Below, in pieces: positions 5,444-61,908 of a DNA stretch of 64,000 nucleotides. Each line of letters begins with the position of its first letter. Position 1 is the stretch's first letter. The DNA is taken from NCBI GenBank assembly GCA_965237525.1, contig CBDEFO010000004.1, forward strand, positions 205,951-269,950, read 5' to 3'. This DNA comes from Candidatus Latescibacterota bacterium (lineage in GTDB: Bacteria > Latescibacterota > CBDEFO01). A model generated the notes under the pieces. The model was given only the letters and a program-made list of their open reading frames with translations, was not told where the DNA came from and ran no database searches. The translations under genes were made by a program, and so were the position numbers.

Positions 5444-5772
5444 GAGGCTTTCTCCTTATCAAGTTACATGGATGCAACCAGATTACCATCGGATAATTGT
5501 CGCTGAAACACATCAAGTCGATGTTTTCATCGGGGCTTTCTCTGCCCTATGCTGACCTCTCTTTGTTTAAAGTGCATGCACAACCCCCAGGGCTATCCAC
5601 TAGGATATTGCGACGAAACTGACACATAAAAGTCTGATCGTTTGCTGTATATCTCTCTGTAGTCTGTGCCATCGGAAATTCTATGTCACAACCATCCTTC
5701 TCAGCCAGTGCGTCAGAGATCAGGTAGTTTCCAAACTAGACTGGGACACTTCCACTGACACCGAGCCTCCAT

Positions 5773-6680
5773 TCACTCAGTTGGATGTCCAAGGTCCAGC
5801 CAGGATGTCAGAACGCCATCCAGGAACACTTTGCTCTGCTTGGCCGCCGAGACCGGGTCGCTTTCATAGCCGGATCCGAATACATGCGCCGCGTACTCGA
5901 CGGAAATGTACCCATCGTAATCTGTCTCCAGCATGGCATGGACCAGCCCGGCCCAGTCCACCTCGCCTTTTTCCCAGTGGCGGGAATTCAAAGTTCTGCC
6001 GGCTCCCCTTGGCATCCTTGGCGTGCATATGGACAATACGCTCGCGCAAGCGGCCAAATGCCTCGACGGCGTCGTCGCCGGCGGCCTTGTAATGGGACGG
6101 ATCGAAGTTGACGTACAAGTCCTGACGCTCAATCAGCTCAATCAACCTGCAGATCGTCGAAAGGTTCCAGACTAAAAAACCTGGAAAGACGGCGGCCTCC
6201 ATGGCGACCTTCACGCCTGGCTGGCGTATAATCGAGGCACTCGCACAGTTCCTCCACCAGCCATAGCCAGCAATGGCTCTCAGAGACCCCGTCAGGAACA
6301 ATCCCGGAAAATACATGGACGACGTCTGTCCCCAGGTCCACTGCCAGGTCGACGGCGCCCTTGACAAAATTGCAGTTCACTTCGCGCCTGTACTCGTCAG
6401 GCTCAATGAGACTGACATGGGCACTCAAGGAGGATAGAGAAAGCCCTGCTGATCGCAGGGTCTGCCTAATTTCTTCGCGCTTGCTCTGTGCAAGGTCTGG
6501 CAAGATGTGTGGCTGGAAATGTGCTGCCGTCTCCATGTTCAACTCAATAGCCTGGTAACCGATCTCTCTCAGGATCTCCGTGGTCTGCTCTATGCCGTAA
6601 TCGGTGAAACCGCTTGAATGAAAGCTTATCCCTCCCCCACGCCGCATTCCTGCATCACTCCCTTCATGTAGCAGAAGCAC
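5773..6680 (-). pseudogene. sugar phosphate isomerase/epimerase (xylose isomerase-like TIM barrel), 2 frameshifts
   Basis: Three overlapping minus ORFs (6138..6680, 5864..6367, 5773..6132) together span a TIM-barrel of AP-endonuclease-2 / xylose-isomerase-like type. GC-rich. Shifts lie at short homopolymers. Confidence 0.45.
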
Positions 6681-7484
6681 TCGTCCTGCCAGACGTCCGG
6701 ATCGATAGGATGTCCTGCATACAGTTGAGCGGTGAGGAAACCGGTGTAGCCGACCTCCTTGAGGGTCTTGACAAACATCTTCCAGTTCATCGTTCCATGC
6801 CCAGGAATGTTGTGTGCCAGCCCTATGCCCTGGCCTTCGTTGTCGCTGAAGTGGACATAGTACAAATACGGCGCGACCTTTCGGACGGCGTCGGTGATGT
6901 TGACATCGGTGATGTTCTGGTCTGCGGTATCAATCATCAGCCTGCAGCCCGCCATGTGGATCTCACGCATCATTCTGATGGTATCGTCCAGGGTAACAAC
7001 GACCCGAGATTCCGAGGGCGTGAGCGTGTGCAGACACAGGGTCACTCAGGGAGGCGTGTTCTGCGACCTCTTTCATCCCCTCCCGGGGGTTCCAGGCCCA
7101 GGCCTGCTCGAAGTCGGTGTCGCTTATCATGTGACCGCTGATGACATTGATGCGAGGACAGCCGACTTGTGCCGCCACGTCCACACACTTCTTGTAGTAA
7201 TCGACGGTGTCGCGCCGGACCCACTCCTTAGAATACGAGAAGTTGTACTCCCGCGCCAGAGCCCCACCGACCACCGACAGCGCGGTGATCTCCAACCCCT
7301 GGTCTTCCACCAGCTTGCCAATTTCCTCGCGATCCCCGCGGTCACACACGACATCCAGGTGCGGACCATATGCCCAGATATCCACCCCCTGAAAGCCGGT
7401 CTTGGCAATCCGGCGTATAGCTTCCTCCAGCGTCGTGTAGTCCAGGTAGATCATCGTACAGGAAGATAGTTTCATTGCGATCAT
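6626..7484 (-). pseudogene. sugar phosphate isomerase/epimerase (xylose isomerase-like TIM barrel), 1 frameshift
   Basis: ORFs 6963..7484 (N-terminal part) and 6626..7045 (C-terminal part, LCLHTL...SDNEG motifs) overlap in different frames. Tandem paralog of the preceding gene. Confidence 0.45.
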
Positions 7485-7622
7485 CCCCTTAACATGCGAT
7501 CAGAATACCTCTACTGACAAGCAAAACCAGCTAACTCGACATCTTCGCCGTCCCAAGAGGAGCTGCCGCTTCATTGCCCCTCTCGAGCACTTACTTCGAG
7601 CTTACGCAGTCTCTCTTCAGAG

Positions 7623-8078
7623 TTATTTCAGTTCTACAAGAATAGCGCATCCTTCGCTGGAGCCAAGATTCTCTGTGGCGTGCTCCACCGCGTCTGCGAA
7701 AATTGCCTCGCCCGCTTTCAACTCAACTTCTGCGGTTCCCCCATCAGGTAAGGTGAAGTTGTACTTGCCATCGCTTATGCCAATGGCAACGAGAGCTGGG
7801 TGCGAATGCATATCTGTCTTTTGACCGGGCTTCATCCGACTTTCTAGCACCCGCACCCGATCGTCTCCAGTATAACCTTGTAGACATGCGGTGCCGCAGC
7901 CGTTGCATCTCTTGCCATTTTGCTCTTCCTTTATTCCTTTATAATGAACAGAGACCATCTCGGATAACGTTTGCCACCATACGAAGTTATGCATAACGAA
8001 GTAGAGCAGAATCCGAGAAAGCAAAGTGCAATAAGCCTTTCGTATAGTGCTGTTAGGTGCGCCGAGCGGAGGGGTCAC
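7623..8078 (-). CDS. cupin domain protein
   Basis: C-terminal 100 aa has a cupin beta-barrel signature (HSHPALVAIGISDGKYNF...GEAIFADAVEHATEN). The true start is probably an internal Met near 7955. Confidence 0.5.
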   Translation of the reverse strand: MTPPLGAPNSTIRKAYCTLLSRILLYFVMHNFVWWQTLSEMVSVHYKGIKEEQNGKRCNGCGTACLQGYTGDDRVRVLESRMKPGQKTDMHSHPALVAIGISDGKYNFTLPDGGTAEVELKAGEAIFADAVEHATENLGSSEGCAILVELK

Positions 8079-8080
8079 AT

Positions 8081-8359
8081 TCAGCTTTTTTTCAATCTAT
8101 AGAGTTGTGGTTTTGTCTTTGGTATTCTTTCTATAGTATTTCTTGCTTCGAGATCAAGTTTAATAACCTCTACATACCAAGATATCGAACCTTCGAATCC
8201 ATCCTTTAGGTTCTTTTCAACAGCTTTTGATAATGAAGCAAAAGTTAATTCTTTCGATTTTAAGGTTTCGACTATTGATTCTCGGATAACTTTATACTTC
8301 GCTTTGCTGATATTCACTCCCTTCTTTCCTTCAGGATGTTGAGTTAAAATTCTTTCCAT
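8081..8359 (-). CDS. hypothetical protein (92 aa)
   Basis: Clean ORF with ATG start, preceded by structured leader element E1. Confidence 0.4.
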   Translation of the reverse strand: MERILTQHPEGKKGVNISKAKYKVIRESIVETLKSKELTFASLSKAVEKNLKDGFEGSISWYVEVIKLDLEARNTIERIPKTKPQLYRLKKS

Positions 8360-8386
8360 TTAGCCTAAATGTCACCTAACGTTCCA

Positions 8387-8461
8387 CGGGTTAATGAACC
8401 CCTAAGGGGTTGGCGAAGCCCAAGCGGCGAACGCCGCGCAGCATTAACCCGCTGCTAACGG
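8387..8461 (-). ncRNA. structured RNA element E1 (four-stem leader, homologous to E2 at 18490..18563)
   Basis: On the minus strand, closing stem GGGUUAAUG/CAUUAACCC encloses three hairpins (GCGGC-GUUC-GCCGC, UUGG-GCUUCG-CCAA, AACCCC-UUA-GGGGUU). Located in the 5' leader of ORF 8081..8359. Confidence 0.4.
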
Positions 8462-8474
8462 AAGTGGTAATATT

Positions 8475-8717
8475 TCAATCTCTAAGTTCAGAAACGTCAT
8501 CCTGGTACCACACAGAGATAATTGTTTTGGATGGCTCTAAGCTGCCCCCACAGGACGTCTGCTGGATATCCTTGATTTGAATTTTTGGATTTTCTCTAAG
8601 CCAATTGTTGATTTCCTTCTCGAGAGCAGACGAGCTTCTTGACAAGGACCTGAAGTATCCCCTTTCTTTGGCAAACAATTTCACTAGCATGAAGACTCCT
8701 CTTCTGTGTAAGATCAA
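8475..8717 (-). CDS. hypothetical protein (80 aa)
   Basis: ORF only. No domain recognised. Confidence 0.3.
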   Translation of the reverse strand: MILHRRGVFMLVKLFAKERGYFRSLSRSSSALEKEINNWLRENPKIQIKDIQQTSCGGSLEPSKTIISVWYQDDVSELRD

Positions 8718-8947
8718 TGAGGTAATTTAGCTTACGCAAGTGAAGTCAACTGGGACACAGGGACGTGCTGTCTTCATATCCATTTCCGTTAACTCAAAAT
8801 CACCGAAACACTTCGTTTATGCTCCTAAATTGGAATATTTTTCGACGTACTTGGTTTATGCACTACTCTACGTGAGAACACAAAATGTAATTTTTGCTAT
8901 TTTCATCTTCTTCAAGGTCAAAGCTAAAAGCTCTATTCCCCGGGACG

Positions 8948-13375: not shown

Positions 13376-13398
13376 ACATCATCCCCGTACATAGACTT

Positions 13399-13462
13399 GG
13401 GCGAACACGTGGGTTCGCCCCTACATCCATCTTTTGTAGGGGCAGACCCGTGTGTCTGCCCT
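13399..13462. repeat. REP-like palindromic element pair (GGGCGAAC..GTTCGCCCCTACA / TGTAGGGGCAGAC..GTCTGCCC)
   Basis: Two adjacent hairpins sharing the TGTAGGGG/CCCCTACA terminus. The same family recurs at 57151..57202 and 63861..63990. Confidence 0.5.
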
Positions 13463-13478
13463 GAAAATGAGATTCTTC

Positions 13479-17755: not shown

Positions 17756-18439
17756 TTAAAGGGCAGTTTGTAGCTCCTTTGTTATTATTGGATTTTCAAA
17801 ATCACTGTTCTTAATAACAATGTCAGCCTGTTCTTTTGGATTTGCTTTTTTAAAGTACAGTTTTTGTCCAGGTATGTAACGTTGGTTATATCTGTCAGTT
17901 ATTTCCTGCTCGGCTCCGATATATTCTCTCTCGGTACCTCTTCCTATGGCACGTTTGACAGCTATTTTGAAATCTACGTCAATGAATATCTTCAAATCCC
18001 AGTATTTGACTAGTTCAGGGCGAAATAAAAAGATTCCCTCCGTAATAAGTATTGAATCACTTGTCGCTATTTGAACTGGCAAGACGACTTCCGAATCTGT
18101 TGCGTAATCGAAGACAGCAGTTTCGTATTGAAAATTGCCAGAGCTCAAAGGATCCAATAGTACTTCTGCCATTGCTTCATGATTGAACGAATCGAAATAG
18201 TACCCCTCTGGTGAATCTTCTCCTTTGCTATAGCGGATGCCTTTAGGATTATGAAAACCAACAACAGAAGCCCTTATGATGTTACGGCCTGAACCTTTGA
18301 GTTCGTCTGCAAGCTCGTTTGCCAAAGTTGTTTTGCCAGAGGCATCTGCACCATCAATTCCTACAAGTATTGGGCGATCTTTTTGTACTGCGGCTACGGT
18401 GTCTGCTAGATGTCTTATTAATTCTTTTCGCTTTATAAT
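17756..18439 (-). CDS. P-loop nucleoside/uridine kinase-like protein (start codon unresolved)
   Basis: Walker A ILVGIDGADASGKTTLA lies upstream of the annotated TTG start. The frame stays open to a TAA at 18575..18577 but contains no ATG/GTG/TTG before the P-loop. Possible ATT/ATA start near 18439, or an indel error. Confidence 0.45.
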   Translation of the reverse strand: MIKRKELIRHLADTVAAVQKDRPILVGIDGADASGKTTLANELADELKGSGRNIIRASVVGFHNPKGIRYSKGEDSPEGYYFDSFNHEAMAEVLLDPLSSGNFQYETAVFDYATDSEVVLPVQIATSDSILITEGIFLFRPELVKYWDLKIFIDVDFKIAVKRAIGRGTEREYIGAEQEITDRYNQRYIPGQKLYFKKANPKEQADIVIKNSDFENPIITKELQTAL

Positions 18440-18489
18440 GAGAAGCTGTAAAGTACCCGAATATCGAAACGTTTTGTGGTGGAAATTTC

Positions 18490-18563
18490 GGCTAACGGCT
18501 TCTGGTTTGCGAACCGGCGAATGCCGGTTGCCCGAAGGGCCAACGCGCGGACGCGCCGTAGCG
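18490..18563 (-). ncRNA. structured RNA element E2 (homolog of E1)
   Basis: Minus strand. Closing stem GCUACGGC/GCCGU(U)AGC enclosing hairpins GCGCG-UC-CGCGC, UUG(G)CCC-UUC-GGGCAA and CCGGC-AUUC-GCCGG. Same four-stem architecture as E1, with different but compensating sequences. Confidence 0.4.
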
Positions 18564-18665
18564 CTAATCAGGTGTTACATGACGTGGCACACGGGTACGG
18601 ATTACTTGTAACCAAACAAAAACGGTTCGTCAGAGAGGTATTTCTTGCATTCCGGAATCAAGCAG

Positions 18666-19684
18666 TCAGGTAGCTCTCCTCCCCATGCACACCGCTGTGT
18701 TCGGGCAGCGATGAGTGCTCCTTCGACAAGTCGAACGAAATCGGGACTGCTGCGGGGCCACACTAGCGTAGCCATCAAGAAATCCCCGTCGCATCTCAGG
18801 AGCTTGTACGTCTACGAGGCACCACCCGATGTCATCGAACTGGTGCGTCAGTGCGCACAAGTCGAAGTCAATGGGCTTGTAGCGGTCTTCCTCCTCGACG
18901 CAATTTAGAACCCTGAAGTCGCCATGGGTCAGGCCCCACGGCTCGCCTCGTGCTTGACGGTTGCGCGTGACGGCTTCGATCGTGCGCTGAAGGAGCGCCA
19001 GCTCATCTCTGCTGAGGTTATTGTCTGTACGAACTTTCCAGTGATCGCGCTCGACCTCCTCCACATCACCCATCCAGTTTATTCGGATTCGATTGAAGCT
19101 GTCCGGGCGGGGCCAGGTCCGCCCATGATTGTGGAGGCGCCCGAGAACAAATTCCAAGCTCGTGCATCGTCGCTTTCGGCAGGTTGATGGGCTCATCCTC
19201 CTTGGCTATGTCCTTTCCTTTTACCCATCGTTGGACGGTGCACACCGCCGCTGGTCCGTCGGGTCTATGGTCGAGAAGCTGGCAAATTGCGCCCGCTTCG
19301 TCCCGCGACCGGAATCTGAATCTCTAACTCAGTGTCTCGATCAAGCGCGAGAAGCCACGAACACATGGATGCAACTTGTCGGTGCACTTCGTCCAGGGGG
19401 AAGTCGTCATAGGGGAAATGCACAGTCACCAGATGCGACGGTTCCGGACCCTCCGTGACAACGGCGAGAGCGAAGTCGCTGTACCCGAAGTTTCCCATGT
19501 GCCCCGCCAGACGCAGCTGCCTAGGTTCCAAGTGACATCGCGCCAGCGCCTCATTGGAGAGTTTGCGGAGCCGGGCCTCTTGCTCCTCCCAGGGGCGACC
19601 ATTGAGGTAACAGTTCGACCCGTCTGTGAGCGGTTCAGACTGATACAAGACCTGTGTCATTGGCGAGCACTCCGTTGCGTTCAT
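18666..19684 (-). pseudogene. phosphotransferase (APH/choline-kinase-like) family protein, frameshifted
   Basis: ORF 18666..19196 contains HGDFRVLNC and IDFDLCA (catalytic loop and DFD of the protein-kinase-like phosphotransferase fold). ORF 19265..19684 gives an N-lobe. GC-rich segment. Confidence 0.4.
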
Positions 19685-19989
19685 CCACAGCCTGATTGAA
19701 GTATTGTCACATTAGAAGTCAAAAATGCCAACTGATCAGTTCCACATTTTCATCCCATGTCAGGTAACGTGTTATATCCGATCTATTTCATATATCCTTC
19801 CATTTTGGTCTAATATCCGAAGATACATTCCGTTGCGTGAAACACCAGCATTGTGTTGTCTTCCCTCACACTGAACCGATGAATCTTCTTACAGGATTCT
19901 TCAGGGCAGACTAGCGAGGAAAACCTCTAACAACAGATGTAAGGGAGGCGAACGTACGGGTCGTCCTCCAATTTATCCTCTAACCTAAG

Positions 19990-24983: not shown

Positions 24984-25109
24984 AGATACTCAAAGTTCCC
25001 TTTAGCGTCTAAATCAGAGCAATAAAAGATAACAACTACTATATCTCTTGTCAAGCCTCTTAGCCAAAATTTTTTTGGAAAATTTTCTGGAATAATGAAT
25101 TGACTTTAG

Positions 25110-26629
25110 AAGCCTTGTGAAAAACCCTTAGATTCAGAAAGTAGTATAGAACAAGCATTGATAAAGCAGCTCCGATGTATTATATTATGTTATTGATAAT
25201 ATTATACATGGAGGAAACAATGACCCCACAAAAGCAGGAACAGACAAATCCGGTGTTTCACTATTTTCAGATGGAGGATTTAGTTCCCGAGGATCATATC
25301 CTTCGTCAGATTGATGAGGCAGTTGATTTTTCATTTGTACGAGACGTTGTATCAGATTGTTATTGCCCTGACAATGGCAGACCCGGTATTGATCCTGAAT
25401 TAGTTGTTCGAATGATCCTTATTGGCTATCTGTATAATTTGAGTGAGAATCGGCTCTGTCAGGAAGTGGGGATGCATGCGGCATATCGGTTGTTTTGTCA
25501 TCAGACATTTGATGATGCGGTTCCGGATAGGAGCACGATCAACAAGCTTCGCAATCACAAGTGGGCATCCAGTGGGTTGTTTGAACGGATAATGCGTCAG
25601 GTAGTCCAGTGTTGTATAGATGTCGGTGTTGTGAGCGGTAAACACCTTAGTGTCGACGGCACTCAGATACAAGCTGATGCTTCAGTGAAAAGTATTGAGC
25701 CGATAGAACCCCCTTTTTCTCTTGATGATTATCTCAAGGGAATCGGTTTTGAAGGTGATAAGACAAAGGGTAGGTCCCGGGCATCCTCAGGATAAAGACT
25801 TTCATGGTGAAAAGTGGACGAACCAAACACACCGTTCGACTACAGACCCCGACGCGCGCTTATACAGCAAATCGAAGGGCAAAGGGGCTTTTCTCTCGTT
25901 TATGGGCCATGATCTGATCGACACAAAAAGCAGAGTAATCCTTGAGACTCAGGGCACGCAGGCGACAGGGACAGCAGAGCCCGAAAGTGCCCTTAAGATG
26001 GTAGATGACCTTGAAACATACACCATGCCCAAAGACATTCAGACACTTAGTGCCGATACCGGTTACGGTTCTGGTAATTTTATCGCTGATGTACTTGACC
26101 GGGGAATCATACCCCATATTCCTCTGCGAGCCGATGAGAAGATTGAACCGATTCCTACATGGAAAAACAAGACAAATTCAGCACATATTCAGGCCGAACG
26201 GGATAGAAAAGTGCGAGAGGCGAAAGCCAGAAATCATGCACGGTCTATCTCATTAACAGCTGACTACAAACTCTCCCGGAGACTCCGTAAACGCAGTGAA
26301 CATATCTTTGCTGAAGCCAGGCAACAACACGGTATGGGACGAGCCCGTTACAGAGAACTAGCCTCACTGAATGAACAGTTGAATCTTGTTGCAACAGTAC
26401 AGAATCTCAAGAGGCTTGTATCTTTCATAAGAAGGGGGAAAGCGTCTATGTGTGCCCTGTCTGTCAAAGACAGTGCATCCTGTTCTTCAAACAGCTCCTA
26501 TTCCTTGCTGACCAGAACTCTGATAAGACTATTTTGCTTATTCCACAGCAAAACGATACGATATGCTACTCTTTGACCCATAATCGGCGCTTCAGACGCT
26601 GCCTGGGACATAACTATTTCACAAGGCTT
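25110..26629 (+). mobile_element. IS copy A (1520 bp; IS5/IS1182-like DUF772+DDE transposase, +1 frameshift), TSD TTAG
   Basis: Terminal IR AAGCCTTGTGAAA / TTTCACAAGGCTT. Flanking 4 bp direct repeat ttag (25106..25109 and 26630..26633). Transposase split into ORFs 25175..25795 and 25722..26576 by an extra C near 25780. Confidence 0.85.
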
Positions 26630-27149
26630 TTAGTGAATAGATCTTCCTTAGTCTCTATGTCATTTTTCTTTGCAATGAGCAAAGTGGCTGGCAAATCCGT
26701 GGTCAGCGTAGTACCTTGCATTTTCAAATAGTTCATCACCTCTCTATACAAGTTTATGACCTTTAGCTCGGAGTATTGTTCTTCCGCCAGATTTACCATC
26801 TTTTCCCTGGCCGACCCTGACAAAACCCAAGCGACCTTCTCTAAACCTACGGGAATGTTTCTGTTTTTTTCCAGCTCAAGCCACTTTACCATTTCATCCA
26901 AAATAGCCTCATAGTCCTCATGCACTTCAACTTCACCTGAACTGTCAAAGGAAGTGTTCCATTTGTTAGCCTTAGCGTAGAGTCGAGCTAGAACTGTTCC
27001 CATAGAGTCTTCCCCAGCACAGACCAATAACTTAATACTTTTCTCGGGGCCGGCCGACTTAAAAAAGAGGCCGATTTTCCCCACATCTTGCGAGAGTCTG
27101 AATATGGACCCTATGATCTTATACTTTTCCTCTTCCTTCTCCTCTCTAA

Positions 27150-28668
27150 AAGCCTTGTGAAAAACCCTTAGATTCAGAAAGCAGTATAGAACAAGCATTG
27201 ATAAAGCAGCTCCGATGTATTATATTATGTTATTGATAATATTATACATGGAGGAAACAATGACCCCACAAAAGCAGGAACAGACAAATCCGATGTTTCA
27301 CTATTTTCAGATGGAGGATTTAGTTCCCGAGGATCATATCCTTCGTCAGATTGATGAGGCAGTTGATTTTTCATTTGTACGAGACGTTGTATCAGATTGT
27401 TATTGCCCTGACAATGGCAGACCCGGTATTGATCCTGAATTAGTTGTTCGAATGATCCTTATTGGCTATCTGTATAATTTGAGTGAGAATCGGCTCTGTC
27501 AGGAAGTGGGGATGCATGCGGCATATCGGTTGTTTTGTCATCAGACATTTGATGATGCGGTTCCGGATAGGAGCACGATCAACAAGCTTCGCAATCACAA
27601 GTGGGCATCCAGTGGGTTGTTTGAACGGATAATGCGTCAGGTAGGCCAGTGTTGCATAGATGTCGGTCTTGTGAGCGGTAAACACCTTAGTGTCGACGGC
27701 ACTCAGATACAAGCTGATGCTTCAGTGAAAAGTATTGAGCCGATAGAACCCCCTGTTTCTCTTGATGATTATCTCAAGGGAATCGGTTTTGAAGGTGATA
27801 AGACAAAGGGTAGGTCCGGGCATCCTCAGGATAAAGACTTTCATGGTGAAAAGTGGACGAACCAAACACACCGTTCGACTACAGACCCCGACGCGCGCTT
27901 ATACAGCAAATCGAAGGGCAAAGGGGCTTTTCTCTCGTTTATGGGCCATGATCTGATCGACACAAAAAGCAGAGTAATCCTTGAGACTCAGGGCACGCAG
28001 GCGACAGGGACAGCAGAGCCCGAAAGTGCCCTTAAGATGGTAGATGACCTTGAAACATAGACCATGCCCAAAGACATTCAGACACTTAGTGCCGATACCG
28101 GTTACGGTTCTGGTAATTTTATCGCTGATGTACTTGACCGGGGAATCATACCCCATATTCCTCTGCGAGCCGATGAGAAGATTGAACCGATTCCTACATG
28201 GAAAAACAAGACAAATTCAGCACATATTCAGGCCGAACGGGATAGAAAAGTGCGAGAGGCGAAAGCCAGAAATCATGCACGGTCTATCTCATTAACAGCT
28301 GACTACAAACTCTCCCGGAGACTCCGTAAACGCAGTGAACATATCTTTGCTGAAGCCAGGCAACAACACGGTATGGGACGAGCCCGTTATAGAGGACCAG
28401 CCTCACTGAATGAACAGTTGAATCTTGTTGCAACAGTACAGAATCTCAAGAGGCTTGTATCTTTCATAAGAAGGGGGAAAGCGTCTATGTGTGCCCTGTC
28501 TGTCAAAGACAGTGCATCCTGTTCTTCAAACAGCTCCTGTTCCTTGCTGACCAGAACTCTGATAAGACTATTTTGCTTATTCCACAGCAAAACGATACGA
28601 TATGCTTCTCTTTGACCCATAATCGGCGCTTCAGACGCTGCCTGGGACATAACTATTTCACAAGGCTT
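27150..28668 (+). mobile_element. IS copy B (1519 bp), transposase with TAC>TAG nonsense, TSD CTAA
   Basis: Same IRs. TSD ctaa (27146..27149 and 28669..28672). Transposase ORF 27215..28060 stops at ...DDLET* where the intact copies read ...DDLETYTMPKD. Confidence 0.85.
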
Positions 28669-29419
28669 CTAAGTATACTTGGAGCCAAGAAGATAGGAAG
28701 CTCTGCTATGAGAGGAACATCGTCCTTAGCGAGCTCTTTTTTTATTTGGCCAAGATCAATGGCTATAGGCTCGGCTGTGAGCCTGATATCTTGTTTAAGA
28801 GACACAATTAAGGACTTGTACTCCTCCTTTAAGACCTTCAGATAGAGGAATTTTAATTCCTGGTTATTCATCATTATTGCTCCTTTAACCTGTCTTTAAC
28901 CTGTGGTCCCCTCTATAACTACTTTGGGTGTTACTGCTTCTCTATAATAAAGTATGACAAGCTTGTCTGCAAGCATTATTTAATGGTTAAAGAAATAGTA
29001 AGGTCTGGAAGGTGATTAAGAGATTAGAGCTATCTCAGGCTGTTAATCTTAATCAGAAAAGTACCCTGAGGAATATTCCTCCTAAGAATAACTAAGCTTC
29101 TATTTTTAATGTTCTTGTGCTTATTCATCATTTACAAACCTCTTGCTCTTAGATATCTTTTAGTTACGTAACTTTTCGTTATCCCATAGCACAACGGTGG
29201 TTGGCTGGTGTCTCTGCTGTAAGATCGTTCTGGCAAATGCCGGTCCCGGGGAACAGCCCGAACTGGATGATGGACTGTGTCGAGAAGATGTGCCGGAGAA
29301 CTTGGGCGAGGAATAAAGGGGATAAAAAAAGGTCGAAATATAATCCCTAATGAATGTGATATGGGGAATGTCGGTTTCTAACTAAAACGGTGAAGTTGAA
29401 TGAAAGGAGGTTGAAAAAG

Positions 29420-37592: not shown

Positions 37593-37691
37593 CGGCAAGT
37601 AAGAACAGGAACAACATAATAAAAAGAAGCGATTGCTTCGCCCATCCACTTGGTGGTTTGCCGGCATTTCGTGCCCCCTGCAATCACCCCC

Positions 37692-37713
37692 CTGTATCCC
37701 CCCTTGATAAGGG
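37692..37713. repeat. small palindromic repeat CTGTATCCCCCCTTGATAAGGG (second copy at 63927..63957)
   Basis: Near-identical palindromic hairpin sequence at two distant intergenic sites. Confidence 0.4.
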
Positions 37714-37822
37714 AGGAATGAAAGGGGCGTGGCAGCAACGCACACAGTGCCCACGCCCCCCAACGATTCTATCGGCGGTTTATCCCGAAGCAATCTCAAC
37801 CCCTACAGATTCGGCGGATATT

Positions 37823-40332: not shown

Positions 40333-40376
40333 GCAACGTCATTGCTACGCCCCCCGATTGAATCTATCGGGGGTTA
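40333..40376. repeat. left copy of 45 bp inverted repeat (GCAACGTCATTGC + CCCCCGATTGAATCTATCGGGGG hairpin)
   Basis: Reverse complement of 41473..41517. The two copies flank the SDR gene 40559..41365. Confidence 0.6.
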
Positions 40377-40558
40377 ACTCGGGGATAGCTAAGTAATCTC
40401 ACTTATACTACTTACCCTGAGTTTGGTACTGCTTCCCAACTCCTGACAGCGTCGGATCTGGTACCTTTTCCCCAGAGCTTTTTCGATACCTCCAATTGCA
40501 ATGGCTGAAAGCCGAATGAATACGGAAAGACTTTACACTTTCAGCGTTGCCCTTGGAA

Positions 40559-41365
40559 CTAACACATATATCTCCCACCGTTCACGTCAATAGTGGCGCC
40601 CGTTATGTAGCTCGAATCGTCAGAAGCTAAAAAGACAACTGCCGGAGCTAATTCCTCCGGCTCGCCGAACTTCCTCAGTGGGACAGACTTTAAAAACTCC
40701 TTCTTAAATTCCTCATCCCTGCTGTTCCAAAGGTCCCTTACCCTCTGAGTGCTCATGAAGAGTCCCGGAGCTACAGCGTTGACGGTTACCCCGAAAGGCC
40801 CGAATTCGTACGCCAGTTGCCGTGTCAACCCCCCTAATCCCGCCTTTGCGCTTGAGTAGTGCACTCCCGAGAGTTGCGCGCCGTGCATTCTCCCCGATAG
40901 GGAGGAGACATTCACAATCTTTCCGTACCTCATCTCCTTCATATACTTCCAGACCTCCCGACAGCACAGGAAAACAGCCCTCAGATTAGTGTCCACAACC
41001 TTATCCCAGTCCTCCTCCGTCAGTTCCTCGAAGAATACAGGAGTGAAGAGCGCTCCCCCGGCGTTGTTCACTAAAATGTCCACCTTTCCGAACTCTGAGA
41101 TGGCCTTCTGGACCATCTCTCTGATCTGATCTATCTTTCGTATATCTCCCTTTGCTATGATCGCCCTCCGTCCCAGCGCTTCTATCTCTGCGCCAGTCTC
41201 CTCCATAGCCTCCACGTCCCTGCCATTTACCACTATATCCGCGCCCTCTTTAGCCATCGCTATGGCCATTGCTCTTCCCAAGCCCTTCGACGATCCTGTG
41301 ATAATAGCAGACCTACCCTCCAGTCTCATTTCTACCTCCCATATTGAGAAATCAACCATCTGCAA
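40559..41365 (-). CDS. SDR family oxidoreductase (3-oxoacyl-ACP reductase-like)
   Basis: TGSSKGLGRA Rossmann motif, catalytic YxxxK (YSSAKAG), NNAG. Confidence 0.85.
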   Translation of the reverse strand: MQMVDFSIWEVEMRLEGRSAIITGSSKGLGRAMAIAMAKEGADIVVNGRDVEAMEETGAEIEALGRRAIIAKGDIRKIDQIREMVQKAISEFGKVDILVNNAGGALFTPVFFEELTEEDWDKVVDTNLRAVFLCCREVWKYMKEMRYGKIVNVSSLSGRMHGAQLSGVHYSSAKAGLGGLTRQLAYEFGPFGVTVNAVAPGLFMSTQRVRDLWNSRDEEFKKEFLKSVPLRKFGEPEELAPAVVFLASDDSSYITGATIDVNGGRYMC

Positions 41366-41472
41366 GCGTCTTTTTTGAAATCCTCCCCAGCAAGAAAGAT
41401 AAAGAAAGAATCACAACCAAGTCAACACAAAACTCTCCCCATAATTGAGATTGCTTCGCCACCCCTGAATTA

Positions 41473-41517
41473 AACCCCGATAGATTCAATCGGGGGGGGG
41501 GATCGCAATGACGTTGC
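41473..41517. repeat. right copy of 45 bp inverted repeat (hairpin + GCAATGACGTTGC)
   Basis: See 40333..40376. Confidence 0.6.
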
Positions 41518-43979: not shown

Positions 43980-44783
43980 ATGAAACTTGAGAACAAAAGA
44001 GCCATCGTCACAGGCGGGGGGGGCGGCATAGGGCGAGGAATAGTCCTGTGCCTTGCAGGTGAGGGGGCGGACATAGCAATAGCCGACCTGGACACGGAGA
44101 GCGCCCAAAATACAGCCGATGAGGTGAAGGCCCTGAAACGCCGAGTCATGGTAATCAAGACAGATGTCACAAAAAGAGAAGACGTGGAAAACATGGTGTC
44201 CGGGGTCGTAAAGGAGTTCGGAGGTGTAGACATACTCGTAAACAACGCCGGGGCTTGGGGGCACAACCTCGGAATGCCATTCACCGAAGACGATGAGGAC
44301 AACTGGGATTTCAACTACTCCATAAACATGAAAGCCCCTTTTATCGTCACAAGAGCCGTCGCTCCTCACATGATAGAACAGAAAAGCGGCAAGATAGTCA
44401 ACATAAGCTCCATCGCTTCCAAGAGAAATCCCCCTATGTTGGCACCCTACTGCGCAACCAAGGCCGCGCTTCTTAGCTTTACCAAAGTTGTGGCCAAAGG
44501 CCTTGCACCTCATAATATCAACGTCAACGTCATTTGTCCGGGGATAATATGGACACCCTTCTGGGAGAGACTCGCTCCTCTTATGGCAGAGACCTATCCT
44601 GAACTTCAAGGACTCAGCGCAAGAGAGGCGTTCGACAAATGGGTCACCAACGCCGTCCCGCTAAATAGAGAGCAGACCCCGGAAGACATTGGGAAAGGCG
44701 TAGTCTTTTTCAGCTCTGAAGACTCCAAGAACATAACCGGACAGACCATGCACATAGACGGCGGCGTGATTATGGAGTTGTAA
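43980..44783 (+). CDS. SDR family oxidoreductase
   Basis: TGGGGGIGRG, NNAG, YCATKAA (YxxxK). Confidence 0.85.
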   Translation: MKLENKRAIVTGGGGGIGRGIVLCLAGEGADIAIADLDTESAQNTADEVKALKRRVMVIKTDVTKREDVENMVSGVVKEFGGVDILVNNAGAWGHNLGMPFTEDDEDNWDFNYSINMKAPFIVTRAVAPHMIEQKSGKIVNISSIASKRNPPMLAPYCATKAALLSFTKVVAKGLAPHNINVNVICPGIIWTPFWERLAPLMAETYPELQGLSAREAFDKWVTNAVPLNREQTPEDIGKGVVFFSSEDSKNITGQTMHIDGGVIMEL

Positions 44784-44843
44784 TCCCCAATAACACTACG
44801 GACTCAAATTAACCTGTCAGTTTATGAACAAGGAGTTCTGAAG

Positions 44844-45836
44844 ATGAAGCGGAAGATTTGGTCTATTACCGTAGTGGTGACGGCAGTACTTCTAGCCTGT
44901 TGCATCGCCTCGGCGAAAGCCCAAAGTCTCTTTAAAGACCCCGAGCTTGTTTTCTCCGCTCCAGAAGGGGCCAATCCAGGAGAGTTTGGACGGCTTGATC
45001 CAAAACCAGAAGGTGAGCCGCGGTACCCATCTGATTTCACGATTGACTCCAAAGGTAACTTCTGCATTCAAGACGATGTGAATCGTCGGATACAGAAATT
45101 TAACAGGGATGGCAGTTTCATACTTTCCTGGAGGCCCCCTCGTGAAGGCGGATGGATACAAGTAGGCGCAAGTTTAGAGGTAGATAGTCAGGATAATATT
45201 TATGTATTGACAGACCACGATGAGGGTTTGAGAGGCTGGAAATTAGACAATCAAGCCAAGTTTGTGAGCCACTTTGAGGTTGAGTTTGGAAGTGGCATTG
45301 AACTTTGGCTACGCGTCAATTCGAAAGGGAATATTTTCATATCGAGCGGTAGACGTTCGTTATTTCTCAACAAGGCTGGAAAGACTGTGCTACGGAGAGG
45401 AGGTGTTCGGAGAATATATACCTCAGGCTTTTCAGATTACATCTTCTTAGAAAATTTTGGAGTACAAGGAAAGCGTTGGCCCTCGTTTGAACGACATGCC
45501 CAAATACCTGAAAAAGGTATCTCTGGATTGTCTACATCCATAAACAAGCAAGGATCGAGCTATGGCGTAATGTCCGCGATTAATGGACAAGGGAACTTAT
45601 TTATTCTTAAAGTGGAAGGTCGAAGTAGAATTATGGGGTTTTATGGTAGGGGTGGAGAATACCTTGGGAAAGTTCCTGATTGTCCTAAGGAAACCCAACC
45701 CAGACCAAATGGTGGAGATGATTTTGTCACAGATGCAGATGGGAATCTCTACCAGTTACAGCTATTTCATACCCAAATAGGGCGGAAAACAGCTGAAGGG
45801 TGGGTCAAGATCTGGAAGTGGGATAGGATAAAGTGA
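44844..45836 (+). CDS. secreted NHL-repeat protein, paralog 1 (intact)
   Basis: Signal peptide. NHL repeat (PSDFTIDSKGNFCIQDDVNRRIQKFNRDG). Conserved C-terminus ...KIWKWDRIK. Confidence 0.6.
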   Translation: MKRKIWSITVVVTAVLLACCIASAKAQSLFKDPELVFSAPEGANPGEFGRLDPKPEGEPRYPSDFTIDSKGNFCIQDDVNRRIQKFNRDGSFILSWRPPREGGWIQVGASLEVDSQDNIYVLTDHDEGLRGWKLDNQAKFVSHFEVEFGSGIELWLRVNSKGNIFISSGRRSLFLNKAGKTVLRRGGVRRIYTSGFSDYIFLENFGVQGKRWPSFERHAQIPEKGISGLSTSINKQGSSYGVMSAINGQGNLFILKVEGRSRIMGFYGRGGEYLGKVPDCPKETQPRPNGGDDFVTDADGNLYQLQLFHTQIGRKTAEGWVKIWKWDRIK

Positions 45837-45924
45837 TGATACTTGGACAGGATATTCCCCAGAGGCAAAAATTCCATTATGAACTCATATTAACCTCTCA
45901 TTTTATCAACAAAGAGTTCTGACG

Positions 45925-46924
45925 ATGAAGCGAAAGATATGCTCGATTTCCATAGTGGTGACAGCAGTACTTCTGAGCAGTTACATCGCCTCGGCGAAAG
46001 CCCAAAGTCTCTTTAAAGACCCCGAGCTTGTTCTCTCCGCTCCCGAGGGAACTGAGCAAGGAGCATTTGGAATGCATCTTGCAGTATCCAGAAGGTTAGT
46101 CTCTATATCCATATGATTTTACTATTGACTCGAAAGGTAACTTCTGGATTCAAGACGATGTGAATGGTAGAATACAGAAGTTTAACAGGGATCGAGAGTT
46201 CATCCTTGCCTGGAGTCCGCCTGATGAAGGATGGGAGATACGCGTAGGGGCAAGTCTAGAGGTGGATGGGCAAGATAACATTTATGAAGTGGAAGAACAT
46301 AATACTGAAGAGGGCGCGAGAGGCACGAAGTTAAATAGTCAAGCTAAGTTTGTGAGCCACTTTCAGGTTGATTTTGAGAGTGGAGTTGAATTCTCCTTAC
46401 GTGTTAACTCTAAAGGGGATATATCAATATTCAGTGGGTCACGTGCTTTATTTCTTAACAAGGAAGGCAAGACGTTGCTATCACGGGGTAGGGTTTACCG
46501 AATAATTACCTCAGCCTTTTCCGATAACATTTTGTTAGAAACTTTTCCAGAAGGTAGAGACGAATGGGCGGCGTTTGAGAGGTATTCACAAAACCCTGGA
46601 AAAGGCAACTCAGGACTGCAAGTAACATTAAACAAGCAGGGATCGGGACATGGAACAGTATCCGCAATTGATGTACAAGGAAATTCATTTGTTGTTGCAC
46701 TTGATGATCGAGAGAGAAGTATGGAATTTTATAGTAGTGGTGGAGAGTACCTTGGGAAAGTTCCCCATTGTCCTAAGAAATCCTTACCTAGAGCAGGTGG
46801 TGGAGATGATTTTGTCACGGATGGGGATGGTACCCTATACCGATTAGAGCTATTTCCTCCTTGGTGGGGGCGGAAAACAGCTGAAGGCTGGATCAAGATA
46901 TGGAAGTGGGAGAGGATAAAGTGA
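45925..46924 (+). pseudogene. secreted NHL-repeat protein, paralog 2 (frameshift + TAG nonsense near 46080..46120)
   Basis: ORFs 45925..46116 and 46160..46924. Alignment with paralog 1 shows GEP>G* and a frame change. Confidence 0.55.
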
Positions 46925-47000
46925 TGATACTTGGACAGGATATTCCCCAGAGGCAAAAATTCCATTTTGAACTCATATTAACCTCTCAATTGATCAGCCG

Positions 47001-55475: not shown

Positions 55476-55605
55476 AATCCTCCGTTTTTCTCCAAGAAGT
55501 TCTTAGATACCCCTCTCAAAGGGCCAAGACATCACCCCTGGTTGCTTCTTCTACCTCTCATCTAAAATTAACATCAAAAATTCTGTGGCGTCAAGGACTA
55601 TCTAA

Positions 55606-57124
55606 AAGCCTTGTGAAATAGTTATGTCCCAGGCAGCGTCTGAAGCGCCGATTATGGGTCAAAGAGTAGCATATCGTATCGTTTTGCTGTGGAATAAGCA
55701 AAATAGTCTTATCAGAGTTCTGGTCAGCAAGGAACAGGAGCTGTTTGAAGAACAGGATGCACTGTCTTTGACAGACAGGGCACACATAGACGCTTTCCCC
55801 CTTCTTATGAAAGATACAAGCCTCTTGAGATTCTGTACTGTTGCAACAAGATTCAACTGTTCATTCAGTGAGGCTGGTCCTCTGTAACGGGCTCGTCCCA
55901 TACCGTGTTGTTGCCTGGCTTCAGCAAAGATATGTTCACTGCGTTTACGGAGTCTCCGGGAGAGTTTGTAGTCAGCTGTTAATGAGATAGACCGTGCATG
56001 ATTTCTGGCTTTCGCCTCTCGCACTTTTCTATCCCGTTCGGCCTGAATATGTGCTGAATTTGTCTTGTTTTTCCATGTAGGAATCGGTTCAATCTTCTCA
56101 TCGGCTCGCAGAGGAATATGGGGTATGATTCCCCGGTCAAGTACATCAGCGATAAAATTACCAGAACCGTAACCGGTATCGGCACTAAGTGTCTGAATGT
56201 CTTTGGGCATGGTGTATGTTTCAAGGTCATCTACCATCTTAAGGGCACTTTCGGGCTCTGCTGTCCCTGTCGCCTGCGTGCCCTGAGTCTCAAGGATTAC
56301 TCTGCTTTTTGTGTCGATCAGATCATGGCCCATAAACGAGAGAAAAGCCCCTTTGCCCTTCGATTTGCTGTATAAGCGCGCGTCGGGGTCTGTAGTCGAA
56401 CGGTGTGTTTGGTTCGTCCACTTTTCACCATGAAAGTCTTTATCCTGAGGATGCCCGGACCTACCCTTTGTCTTATCACCTTCAAAACCGATTCCCTTGA
56501 GATAATCATCAAGAGAAACAGGGGGTTCTATCGGCTCAATACTTTTCACTGAAGCATCAGCTTGTATCTGAGTGCCGTCGACACTAAGGTGTTTACCGCT
56601 CACAAGACCGACATCTATGCAACACTGGACTACCTGACGCATTATCCGTTCAAACAACCCACTGGATGCCCACTTGTGATTGCGAAGCTTGTTGATCGTG
56701 CTCCTATCCGGAACCGCATCATCAAATGTCTGATGACAAAACAACCGATATGCCGCATGCATCCCCACTTCCTGACAGAGCCGATTCTCACTCAAATTAT
56801 ACAGATAGCCAATAAGGATCATTCGAACAACTAATTCAGGATCAATACCGGGTCTGCCATTGTCAGGGCAATAACAATCTGATACAACGTCTCGTACAAA
56901 TGAAAAATCAACTGCCTCATCAATCTGACGAAGGATATGATCCTCGGGAACTAAATCCTCCATCTGAAAATAGTGAAACATCGGATTTGTCTGTTCCTGC
57001 TTTTGTGGGGTCATTGTTTCCTCCATGTATAATATTATCAATAACATAATATAATACATCGGAGCTGCTTTATCAATGCTTGTTTTATACTACTTTCTGA
57101 ATCTAAGGGTTTTTCACAAGGCTT
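55606..57124 (-). mobile_element. IS copy D (1519 bp, intact transposase), TSD CTAA, 130 bp upstream of icd
   Basis: ctaa at 55602..55605 and 57125..57128. Transposase ORF 55659..57059. Confidence 0.9.
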
Positions 57125-57150
57125 CTAAACTGGAAGGCAAATAAGAAATA

Positions 57151-57202
57151 ATGTAGGGCTTGGGTAACCCAGCCCCTGGGGCGAGGGAACCTCGCCCCTA
57201 CA
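57151..57202. repeat. REP-like palindromic element (TGTAGGGCTTGGGTAACCCAGCCC / GGGGCGAGGGAACCTCGCCCCTACA)
   Basis: Two stacked hairpins. Same family as 13399..13462 and 63861..63990. Confidence 0.5.
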
Positions 57203-61883: not shown

Positions 61884-61908
61884 TTAAGTCGGTATATGCT
61901 TTTTTTGC

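What the first reader, a model, noticed from the sequence alone, without database searches (positions are those of the whole stretch)
8387..8461. Structured four-stem RNA element E1 in a 5' leader, with a diverged homolog E2 at 18490..18563
Both elements lie on the minus strand immediately upstream of minus-strand genes (a hypothetical 92 aa protein and a P-loop kinase). Both fold as a closing stem enclosing three hairpins of similar length and order: a GC-rich hairpin with a short pyrimidine loop, a UUGG/UUG...CAA hairpin and a third hairpin. Primary sequences differ, but base pairs are maintained by compensatory changes (GGGUUAAUG/CAUUAACCC versus GCUACGGC/GCCGUAGC; GCGGC/GCCGC versus GCGCG/CGCGC; AACCCC/GGGGUU versus CCGGC/GCCGG). 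That pattern argues for a conserved RNA structure, such as a riboswitch-like or protein-binding leader or a small ncRNA family, and against chance palindromes.
Basis: seen in the sequence. Interest (0 to 1): 0.55.

Follow-up and report, generated by a model that had tools for sequence, protein, structure and literature searches.

The report
Integron-type cassette recombination sites (attC)
The two folded elements are real and related, but they are most likely DNA recombination sites (attC) at the ends of two stray mobile gene cassettes rather than regulatory RNAs, which is a known kind of element.

Summary
E1 (full extent 8369-8462, minus) and E2 (18485-18582, minus) are homologous members of a ~97-nt family. 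I found 43 full-length copies, including three Candidatus Latescibacterota MAGs and several metagenome contigs. There they form co-oriented arrays with one or a few ORFs between sites: GNAT, methyltransferase, glyoxalase, APH, toxin-antitoxin.

Each copy starts with nnnTAAC and ends with GTTA[G/T]nn, the attC inverse-core and core boxes. Inside is an 8-bp stem (P1, L-box-like) enclosing three short hairpins. All five helices covary (86.5% paired; 159 double changes vs 53 in shuffles). G·T wobbles are nearly absent, which points to a DNA-level constraint.

Each site's left arm is complementary to the 10 nt after GTTA of the previous site. That is the signature of circular cassettes cut at G|TT.

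E1 ends a 413-bp cassette (8380-8792) flanked by GTTA. A 97%-identical genome lacks exactly this segment. E2 ends a ~1.27-kb cassette carrying a decayed APH-like gene.

No integrase lies in the window or in the fetched flanks, so both are isolated cassettes (SALIN-like).

The leader-RNA or riboswitch reading is not supported. This is a known kind of element and a new family member.

The parts
8369..8462 (-). E1, complete attC-type site (top strand = window minus strand)
   Evidence: CM R1 hit, 88.2 bits, model 1-97. nhmmer E 5e-20.
8454..8460 (-). E1 R'' box, CGTTAGC (family consensus nnnTAAC; G replaces the second A)
   Evidence: Alignment and box table. With the upstream CCACTTC it pairs 9/10 with the start of its own cassette, TTAACGGAAATGG (read from the sequence; fold).
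8442..8450 (-). E1 P1 5' strand (L''-like), GGGTTAATG
   Evidence: Pairs with 8388-8396. Helix 2 covaries across the family, with 7 of 8 pairs changed on both sides.
8424..8437 (-). E1 hairpin P2, GCGGC-GTTC-GCCGC
   Evidence: helix 3.
8410..8423 (-). E1 hairpin P3, TTGG(G)C-TTC-GCCAA
   Evidence: helix 4.
8399..8409 (-). E1 hairpin P4, CCCC-TTA-GGGG
   Evidence: helix 5, 96% paired.
8388..8396 (-). E1 P1 3' strand (L'-like), CATTAACCC
8374..8380 (-). E1 R' box, GTTAGGT (GTTRRRY). Cassette boundary falls within GTTA, canonically between G 8380 and T 8379
   Evidence: Three-way junction alignment with the empty site in L002. Box table.
8380..8792 (-). 413-bp gene cassette ending in E1. Present in the window, L001, L003 and L004; absent from L002
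   Evidence: BLAST of L002 against the window. Sequences. Alignment A3. Flanked by GTTA at 8790-8793 and 8377-8380.
8475..8717 (-). Orphan ORF of the E1 cassette (80 aa from TTG, 71 aa from the ATG at 8690)
   Evidence: Only near-identical homologs exist among 5.8 billion proteins. No Pfam family.
18485..18582 (-). E2, complete attC-type site
   Evidence: CM R1 hit, 80.4 bits, model 1-97. About 75% identical to Latescibacterota copy L005:4961-5058.
18574..18580 (-). E2 R'' box, ATGTAAC
18562..18569 (-). E2 P1 5' strand, GATTAGCG (pairs with 18504-18511, two mismatches)
18514..18556 (-). E2 three hairpins: P2 GCGC-GTCC-GCGC (18545-18556), P3 TTGGCCC-TTC-GGGCAA (18528-18543), P4 CCGGC-ATTC-GCCGG (18514-18527)
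18504..18511 (-). E2 P1 3' strand, CGCAAACC
18490..18496 (-). E2 R' box, GTTAGCC
19755..19768 (-). Predicted 5' junction of the E2 cassette, GTTACCTGACATGG. It is 12/14 complementary to E2's left arm CCACGTCATGTAAC
   Evidence: the only hit with 2 or fewer mismatches other than the self-match. Sequence. Reconstructed circle junction folds at z -4.4.
18496..19767 (-). Inferred ~1.27-kb cassette ending in E2. It carries an APH-like gene broken into at least three frames
   Evidence: (PF01636 on 18666-19196).

Best explanation
E1 and E2 are attC-type recombination sites at the 3' ends of two isolated integron-style gene cassettes.

Each site is a ~95-bp imperfect palindrome with this layout:
- an outer R box (5' nnnTAAC, 3' GTTAnnn)
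- an unpaired spacer
- an inner 8-bp stem (P1, equivalent to the L box and keeping the TT/AA of GTT/AAC)
- a terminal structure of three short GC hairpins

By analogy with characterised integrons, one DNA strand folds when single-stranded. A tyrosine recombinase of the IntI type would bind the R and L boxes and cut at AA|C on the bottom strand (G|TT on the top). It would then exchange that strand with another att site or a genomic GTT site, and replication would resolve the product.

In this window one 413-bp cassette (orphan ORF plus E1) has been inserted, or in the sister strain excised, at a GTTA 21 nt upstream of the DUF6958 start codon in the cox gene cluster. A second cassette (decayed APH-like gene plus E2) sits upstream of a P-loop kinase gene. 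Neither has an integrase nearby, so both are SALIN-type stray cassettes.

Shown: family membership, covarying structure, box motifs, array organisation, the cassette boundary within GTTA, and cassette-phase complementarity.

Inferred: folding as single-stranded DNA, bottom-strand choice, and catalysis by an IntI-type enzyme.
For: 1. Family. A pattern scan of GTDB genomes and JGI metagenomes, followed by nhmmer and a covariance model, gives 43 full-length copies. They form co-oriented arrays: at least 12 in 13 kb in L033, 7 in L005, 4 in 2.5 kb in L041.
2. Ends. The 5' end is nnnTAAC (T 28/29, A 29/29, A 23/29, C 29/29). The 3' end is GTTA (27-28/29) followed by G/T. This matches RYYYAAC/GTTRRRY.
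3. Cassette phase. Each site's left arm pairs with the 10 nt after GTTA of the previous site at 6.3-6.5/10. The same site gives 3.7 and unrelated sites 3.75 +/- 1.5; permutation p < 1e-5.
4. Polymorphism. L002 (97% identical) has the empty site cttaaGTTAGGAGACATTT. The window has GTTA|ACGG...413 bp...GGAAC|GTTAGGTGACATTT.
5. Own-junction folding. Joining each site to its own cassette start improves the fold to z -4.4 for both. Native-context values are -2.8 and -0.8.
6. Covariation. 86.5% of cells are paired against 72% in shuffles. There are 159 double changes against 53. Slid controls give 27-41% paired.
7. Watson-Crick only. Of 1002 cells, 854 are WC and 16 are G·T on the sense strand.
8. 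Array cargo is typical of chromosomal cassette arrays: GNAT, methyltransferases, glyoxalase, APH, TumE/HVO_A0114 and Gp49/HTH toxin-antitoxin pairs, with IS insertions.
9. Length is 86-120 nt, median 97.
10. Literature. attC is defined as R box, L box, UCS, EHBs and a VTS that can be branched (PMC2727003, PMC11641012). Taxon-specific attC sequence and structure families are known (PMC8352920). Isolated cassettes (SALINs) arise by insertion at genomic GWT sites (bioRxiv 10.1101/2022.09.11.507474).
Against: - No integron integrase was found. A tblastn with IntI1 (sequence recalled from memory) gave no hit in the 64-kb window or in any array locus. That includes about 3-4 kb upstream of the arrays in L005, L008 and L015/L028.
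- The unpaired spacer is asymmetric in the non-canonical direction: 4-5 nt on the R'' arm and 7-8 nt on the R' arm. By definition, canonical extrahelical bases lie on the R''-L'' arm (PMC2727003).
- The standard attC detectors (IntegronFinder, HattCI) could not be run.
- E1's R'' has G where the family has A. E2's P1 has two mismatches. Either site may therefore be inactive.
- The direction of the E1 event, insertion or precise excision, is not resolved.
Confidence: 0.85

Rival explanations
1. The sites belong to a cassette system that is integron-like in layout but uses a different or highly divergent recombinase. The conserved three-hairpin cloverleaf and the long R'-side spacer would be its specific recognition features.
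For: No IntI homolog next to any of the arrays whose upstream flank is visible. Spacer asymmetry is opposite to canonical attC. The loops and junctions of the three hairpins (CTGCG, TTGG..CAAC, TTCG) are conserved across all 38 distinct copies. No match in plasmids or viral contigs.
Against: The TAAC/GTTA boxes, the TT/AA in the inner stem, the G|TT-phase cassette structure and the cargo all match integrons. Clusters of attC sites without an integrase are common in ordinary integron biology (10.1101/2022.09.11.507474). Only a few kb of flank were visible. Conserved whole-site sequence is normal for chromosomal integrons, e.g. the VCRs with a 65-bp branched VTS (PMC2727003).
Confidence: 0.08
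2. One reading: a cis-regulatory or protein-binding RNA in the 5' leader of the downstream gene, or a small ncRNA family.
For: The elements would be transcribed if the flanking ORFs are co-transcribed. The structure covaries. E1 ends 15 nt before the DUF6958 start codon.
Against: The orthologous DUF6958 gene in L002 lacks E1. Downstream genes are unrelated across the family. There is no wobble tolerance on the sense strand. Both strands fold equally well. No Rfam hit. The outer arm pairs with sequence 330-1270 nt upstream, across the cassette.
Confidence: 0.03
3. REP/BIME- or MITE-like selfish intergenic palindromes, or intrinsic terminators.
For: GC-rich, intergenic and palindromic on both strands. 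The genome does carry other REP-like palindromes.
Against: Only two copies in 64 kb. There are no terminal inverted repeats and no T-run after the stems. There is no GTAG head. Copies occur as one site per one or a few ORFs in co-oriented arrays with phase complementarity, which REPs and MITEs do not show.
Confidence: 0.02

Closest known systems
Integron attC sites (59-base elements), especially taxon-specific chromosomal families such as the Vibrio cholerae repeats (VCR)
   Same: RYYYAAC-type and GTTRRRY-type boxes at the two ends. An inner second inverted repeat (L box) separated from the R box by an unpaired spacer. Length within 57-141 bp. Position at the 3' end of promoterless ORFs in co-oriented arrays. 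Cassette boundary at G|TT. Whole-site sequence conserved within a lineage. A branched terminal structure is allowed (PMC2727003, PMC8352920, PMC11641012).
   Different: The terminal structure is a conserved set of three 4-6 bp hairpins, giving a cloverleaf with P1. The R'-side spacer is 7-8 nt against 4-5 nt on the R'' side, so the surplus of unpaired bases is on the arm opposite to canonical extrahelical bases. No IntI or attI was seen in the available flanks. The family was found in Latescibacterota MAGs and metagenomes, not in plasmids.
[quoted passage not shown]
   Same: One ORF plus one attC, with no integrase or other att site nearby. The E1 junctions fall at GTT. The cassette is present or absent between close strains.
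   Different: The target (GTTAGGAGACATTT in L002) itself resembles the family's post-crossover consensus GTTA-nnn-GAnAT. The recipient may therefore be the head of an older cassette rather than an arbitrary attG. Direction (insertion or excision) is not established.
REP/BIME elements and IS200/IS605 subterminal hairpins
   Same: Short GC-rich palindromes that act as folded single-stranded DNA substrates.
   Different: No GTAG head, no Y1 transposase or TnpB context, and no dispersed high copy number. Units carry cargo ORFs and are cut at GTT.

Membership tests
Integron attC site | Inverse core site R'' (RYYYAAC) at the 5' end and core site R' (GTTRRRY) at the 3' end, mutually complementary | tested here: met
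   TAAC in 23-29 of 29 copies and GTTA in 27-28 of 29. E2 has ATGTAAC/GTTAGCC. E1 has CGTTAGC/GTTAGGT, with one deviation in R''.
Integron attC site | Second inner inverted repeat (L''/L') forming an L box, separated from the R box by an unpaired central spacer | tested here: met
   P1 is 8 bp, 86.6% paired, with 7 of 8 pairs changed on both sides. It keeps TT/AA as in GTT/AAC. Unpaired spacers lie on both arms.
Integron attC site | Two or three extrahelical bases on the R''-L'' arm that set strand choice | tested here: inconclusive
   No conserved single-base bulge on the R''-L'' arm appears in the model consensus. The surplus of unpaired bases (7-8 vs 4-5 nt) is on the R'-L' arm. Some copies have an extra T in L'' (e.g. 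L005:4961-5058).
Integron attC site | Length about 57-141 bp with a variable terminal structure | tested here: met
   Length 86-120 nt, median 97. The terminal structure is three hairpins.
Integron attC site | Lies at the 3' end of a cassette ORF; arrays of co-oriented sites and ORFs | tested here: met
   All sites in an array are on one strand, spaced mostly about 0.4-1.2 kb apart with wider gaps up to ~2.9 kb, several holding transposase genes. ORFs are on the same strand. In the window, E1 follows ORF 8475-8717 and E2 follows the APH-like fragments.
Integron attC site | Cassette boundary (crossover) at G|TT of R', so that R'' pairs with the first bases of its own cassette | tested here: met
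   The E1 presence/absence junctions fall within GTTA. Phase complementarity is 6.3-6.5/10 vs 3.75 +/- 1.5. The E2 partner lies at 19755-19768.
Integron attC site | Recombined by an integron integrase (IntI) as a folded bottom strand | not testable with these tools
   Needs an assay. No IntI homolog was found in the window or in the array flanks.
Integron attC site | Detected by the curated attC covariance model (IntegronFinder/HattCI) | not testable with these tools
   The model is not in Rfam and not available here. Rfam gives no match.
Complete integron | intI gene, attI site and Pc promoter adjacent to the cassettes | tested here: not met
   tblastn with IntI1 (recalled from memory) found nothing below E = 3 in the window and loci L001-L013, and nothing at E <= 1e-3 in any attC-bearing locus among L014-L046.
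SALIN (single attC lacking integron-integrase) | One CDS with one attC, no other att site or integrase nearby | tested here: met
   There are only two model hits in the 64-kb window, 10 kb apart. There is no integrase. No partner site lies downstream of the kinase or DUF6958 genes.
Riboswitch / cis-regulatory leader RNA | Conserved position upstream of orthologous or functionally related genes; RNA-type covariation with G-U; a known family model | tested here: not met
   Absent upstream of the L002 ortholog. Downstream genes are unrelated. 16 G·T among 1002 cells. No Rfam hit.
REP/BIME or MITE | Many dispersed intergenic copies; GTAG head (REP) or terminal inverted repeats plus target duplication (MITE) | tested here: not met
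   Two copies in 64 kb. No TIRs. The arrayed one-site-per-ORF organisation occurs elsewhere.
Intrinsic terminator | GC-rich stem directly followed by a T/U run | tested here: not met
   The sequence after E1 is GTGGAACGTTAGGTGAC and after E2 is CGAAATTTCCACC.

The most novel reading that the evidence does not exclude
These cloverleaf sites define a separate lineage of cassette-capture system in Latescibacterota-like and related uncultured bacteria. Its recombinase is not encoded next to the arrays and recognises a three-hairpin terminal structure with an inverted spacer asymmetry. Such a system would be either a deeply divergent integron class or a non-IntI enzyme. It was active recently enough to differ between strains that are 97% identical.
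Probability: 0.1. Interest if true: 0.6.

Novelty: new member of a known kind. Interest (0 to 1): 0.3.

Why it matters
It removes a false riboswitch or ncRNA candidate and replaces it with a concrete explanation. It also adds three useful things:
- a well-defined, covarying attC family from poorly studied phyla, with a model of 97 positions and 28 pairs and 38 distinct copies
- a natural presence/absence polymorphism of a single cassette inside a respiratory (cox) gene cluster, which fits the recently described spread of cassettes to non-integron genomic sites
- a conserved three-hairpin terminal structure and unusual spacer geometry that could help explain how integrases read attC shape

None of this changes the current understanding of integrons.

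Tried and rejected
- Rfam at gathering and at E <= 10 gave only noise.
- tRNA or tRNA-like: ARAGORN finds only tRNA-Asp at 51051. The loops are too short.
- Generic clusters of three hairpins are no more frequent in the window than in shuffles (16 vs 11-22). The hairpin cluster alone is therefore not evidence.
- Sliding-window MFE ranks E1 only about 17th in the window.
- I first thought E2's region was an insertion relative to L002. It is instead a 2.08-kb deletion in L002 at a 9-bp microhomology, and L002 keeps the kinase 3' end.
- IS200/IS605-type element for the 413-bp segment was rejected: no transposase or TnpB, no left-end hairpin, and the family occurs in arrays.
- The strict metagenome pattern CGTTCGSSSSTTGGSCTTCGSCAAC gave 0 hits.
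- Six of the nine GTDB pattern hits (L006, L007, L009, L010, L012, L013) are chance matches in GC-rich DNA. The CM scores them at 19 bits or less, or not at all.
- DUF6958 homologs elsewhere (L047, L048) have no family site. DUF6958 is therefore not shown to be a cassette gene.
- The APH gene next to E2 is unrelated to the APH cassette in L033.
- No partner attC exists for the kinase or DUF6958 segments.
- No copies in plasmids or viral contigs.
- Host taxonomy could not be resolved: the next-best COX1 hit is 66% identical and named hits are scattered over phyla. Cluster look-up gave no names.
- A literature search for integrons in Latescibacteria found nothing specific.

Full report
**1. Observation**

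On the minus strand, E1 reads GGGTTAATG-CTGC-GCGGC GTTC GCCGC-TTGGGC TTC GCCAA-CCCC TTA GGGG-TT-CATTAACCC. The plus strand folds just as well at z -3.0.

E2 contains three comparable hairpins. In its native context the MFE is a different fold and is not unusual (z -0.8).

Three adjacent 4-bp hairpins alone occur at chance frequency in this window (16 observed, 11-22 in shuffles). E1 is only about the 17th most stable 80-mer after GC correction. Rfam finds nothing at either site, and ARAGORN finds only an unrelated tRNA-Asp. The case therefore rests on homology and context, not on folding energy.

**2. Context in sister genomes**

The 92-aa protein downstream of E1 is a DUF6958 protein. Its near-identical homologs led to two kinds of contig:
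- ENA contigs that are 99.6-99.8% identical to the window (L001, L003, L004)
- a 4.54-Mb contig that is about 97% identical (L002)

L002 is collinear with the window across the cox cluster but lacks E1. The three-way junction alignment shows this:
- L002: …GTGATCTTAA-GTTA-GGAGACATTTCGGCTAAATGG…
- Window, left: …GTGATTTTGA-GTTA-ACGGAAATGG…
- Window, right: …CCCGTGGAAC-GTTA-GGTGACATTTAGGCTAAATGG…

The window therefore carries a 413-bp segment (8380-8792) bounded by GTTA on both sides. It contains an orphan 71-80-aa ORF, whose only homologs are near-identical copies, with E1 at its 3' end. E1 thus belongs with the ORF upstream of it, not with DUF6958. The first bases of the segment (TTAACGGAAATGG) are complementary at 9 of 10 positions to the sequence just 5' of E1 (CCACTTCCGT).

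The E2 region is absent from L002 for a different reason. L002 has a 2.08-kb deletion at a 9-bp microhomology and retains the kinase 3' end.

**3. A family**

E1 and E2 share GGTTG-N-CGAAG-N-CCAA followed by SSSSCGRACGSSSS on the plus strand. A scan of 185,579 species-representative genomes with this combined pattern returned nine loci.

Four matches in three Candidatus Latescibacterota MAGs (L005, L008, L011) align with E1 and E2 over about 100 nt, including the flanks. The other six are isolated hits in GC-rich DNA.

A second pattern on JGI metagenomes returned 33 loci, after a stricter pattern found none. An nhmmer profile and then a covariance model (R1: 97 positions, 28 pairs) identify 43 full-length copies. 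They are arranged as follows:
- at least 12 in the 13-kb contig L033
- 7 in L005
- 4 in 2.5 kb in L041
- 4 in L028
- 3 each in L011, L015 and L019

Sites within an array are always on one strand and typically 0.4-1.2 kb apart. In the window the model finds only E1 (88 bits) and E2 (80 bits), and it finds nothing in L002.

**4. What the family looks like**

Read in the direction of the neighbouring ORFs, the consensus of 38 distinct copies is:

tCnnnTAAC-Ancnc-ggTtnnCG-CtgC-[GccgC nTnC GcncC]-[TTGGcc ttc ggCAA]-[CCcgc tnc gcgGG]-TT-CGnaaAcc-ggnnanaC-GTTAnnn-GanAt

- **5' box:** nnnTAAC.
- **3' box:** GTTA[G/T]nn. These are the inverse-core (RYYYAAC) and core (GTTRRRY) sites of integron attC elements.
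- **Inner stem P1:** it keeps TT on one strand and AA on the other, like the L''/L' boxes.

All five helices covary. 86.5% of cells are paired against 71.7% in shuffles. There are 159 cells changed on both sides against 53. The covariation score is 0.339 against 0.05 for every slid control, and 0 of 500 shuffles reach any observed measure.

E1's GGGTTAATG/CATTAACCC is the equivalent of the family's GGTTTGCG/CGCAAACC. For E2 the family helix is GATTAGCG/CGCAAACC.

Of 1002 paired cells, 854 are Watson-Crick. Only 16 are G·T on the sense strand and 29 on the other strand. That pattern is what a DNA-level constraint predicts, not an RNA one.

**5. Cassette behaviour**

In arrays the ORFs are co-oriented with the sites. 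They encode GNAT acetyltransferases, methyltransferases, a glyoxalase, an APH, an SDR and two toxin-antitoxin pairs (TumE/HVO_A0114, Gp49/HTH). IS elements are inserted here and there. This is the usual cargo of chromosomal cassette arrays.

The sharpest test is phase. If units are circles opened at G|TT, each site's left arm should pair with the bases after GTTA of the previous site, not its own. The observed scores are:
- previous site: 6.3-6.5 of 10
- same site: 3.7
- unrelated sites: 3.75 +/- 1.5, permutation p < 1e-5

The three variable bases next to TAAC/GTTA match almost perfectly between neighbours (GGC/GCC, CGA/TCG, GTA/TAC, and so on).

Applying the rule to E2 predicts a cassette start of GTTACATGACGTGG. 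GTTACCTGACATGG is found at 19755-19768, on the correct strand just upstream of the APH-like gene fragments. By my estimate, a match this good has a chance of about 0.006 within 2 kb.

Joining each site to its own predicted start gives folds with a 12-14 bp outer stem, an internal loop, P1 and three hairpins. Both reach z -4.4 on the bottom strand.

**6. Interpretation**

These features match the published definition of attC. [quoted passage not shown] Its variable terminal structure ranges from 3 nt to a large branched structure, and it is cut in the AAC of the R box on the bottom strand (PMC2727003, PMC11641012). Taxon-specific conservation of attC sequence and fold is well documented (PMC8352920).

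Isolated cassettes without an integrase are named SALINs. They are common and have been shown experimentally to arise by integrase-mediated insertion at genomic 5'-GWT-3' sites (bioRxiv 10.1101/2022.09.11.507474). E1 fits that description and E2 probably does too.

The E1 target in L002 (GTTAGGAGACATTT) and the sequence after E2 (GTTAGCCGAAATTT) both resemble the family's post-crossover consensus GTTA-nnn-GAnAT. DUF6958 and the kinase may therefore themselves head older cassettes that have lost their own sites. I found no partner site for either.

**7. Limits**

- A tblastn with IntI1, whose sequence I recalled from memory, found no integrase in the window, in L002 or in any array locus. That includes the 3-4 kb visible upstream of the arrays in L005, L008 and L015/L028. 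The enzyme is inferred, not shown.
- The unpaired spacer is 4-5 nt on the R'' arm and 7-8 nt on the R' arm. Canonical extrahelical bases are defined on the R''-L'' arm (PMC2727003). This is a real difference from textbook attC sites.
- IntegronFinder and HattCI could not be run.
- The family is absent from the plasmid and viral collections.
- I found no paper describing integrons in Latescibacterota.
- The host of the window is an unidentified lineage: the next-best COX1 hit is 66% identical.
- Whether the 413-bp difference is an insertion in the window lineage or an excision in L002 is unresolved.

**8. Verdict**

The structural observation is essentially correct and reflects a real, covarying family. 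The RNA-leader interpretation is not supported. The elements are attC-type recombination sites of two stray gene cassettes. This is a known kind of element, represented here by a previously undescribed family with a three-hairpin terminal structure. Interest is modest.

Noticed in passing
window 25105-26636, 27140-28678, 47697-49230, 55602-57134, 60357-61887: Five 99%-identical copies of a ~1.53-kb insertion sequence encoding a 466-aa DDE transposase (DUF772 + DDE_Tnp_1). Two are in one orientation and three in the other.
   Followed up: partly
window 44700-47640: Tandem repeats of about 1085 bp at 62-84% identity, lying in or next to an NHL-repeat protein gene.
   Followed up: no
window 13391-13470, 57150-57200, 63880-63980, 37686-37727; L002 ~900-930: GC-rich palindromes with ends like TGTAGGGGCG…CGCCCCTACA, i.e. 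REP-like with a GTAG head. The copy at 13387-13465 is absent from the 97%-identical genome L002.
   Followed up: no
window 40350-40406 and 41441-41497: An SDR gene (40559-41365, minus) is flanked by 57-nt inverted copies of an element that contains the hairpin CCCCCGATAGATTCAATCGGGGG. It is not a member of the E1/E2 family.
   Followed up: partly
window 17756-18448 (minus): The P-loop (PRK/uridine kinase-like) gene has no ATG, GTG or TTG upstream of its P-loop; the first is the TTG at 18325. In strains L003 and L004 an IS4-like element (PF13701) abuts window position 18409 inside its 5' end. The gene is probably decaying.
   Followed up: partly
window 5716-8172 and 17798-19879 vs L002: L002 lacks both segments. 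The first deletion truncates DUF6958 and removes the cupin and AP_endonuc_2 genes. The second is bounded by the 9-bp microhomology GAAAATCCA.
   Followed up: yes
window 6138-7484: The AP_endonuc_2 (sugar phosphate isomerase-like) gene between the cupin gene and COX4 is called as three consecutive ORFs, probably a frameshifted pseudogene.
   Followed up: no
window 8794-8944 vs L002 9753-9937: The ~150 bp between the COX3 stop and the cassette junction is only about 75% identical between the two genomes and has a 39-bp indel. The surrounding DNA is about 97% identical. This marks a local hot spot of change next to the insertion site.
   Followed up: partly
L005 3709-4908; L015 1125-2339 and 5696-6932; L033 6327-7643: The cassette arrays in other genomes are interrupted by IS481-, Mutator-, ISAZ013- and IS110-family transposase genes.
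   Followed up: no
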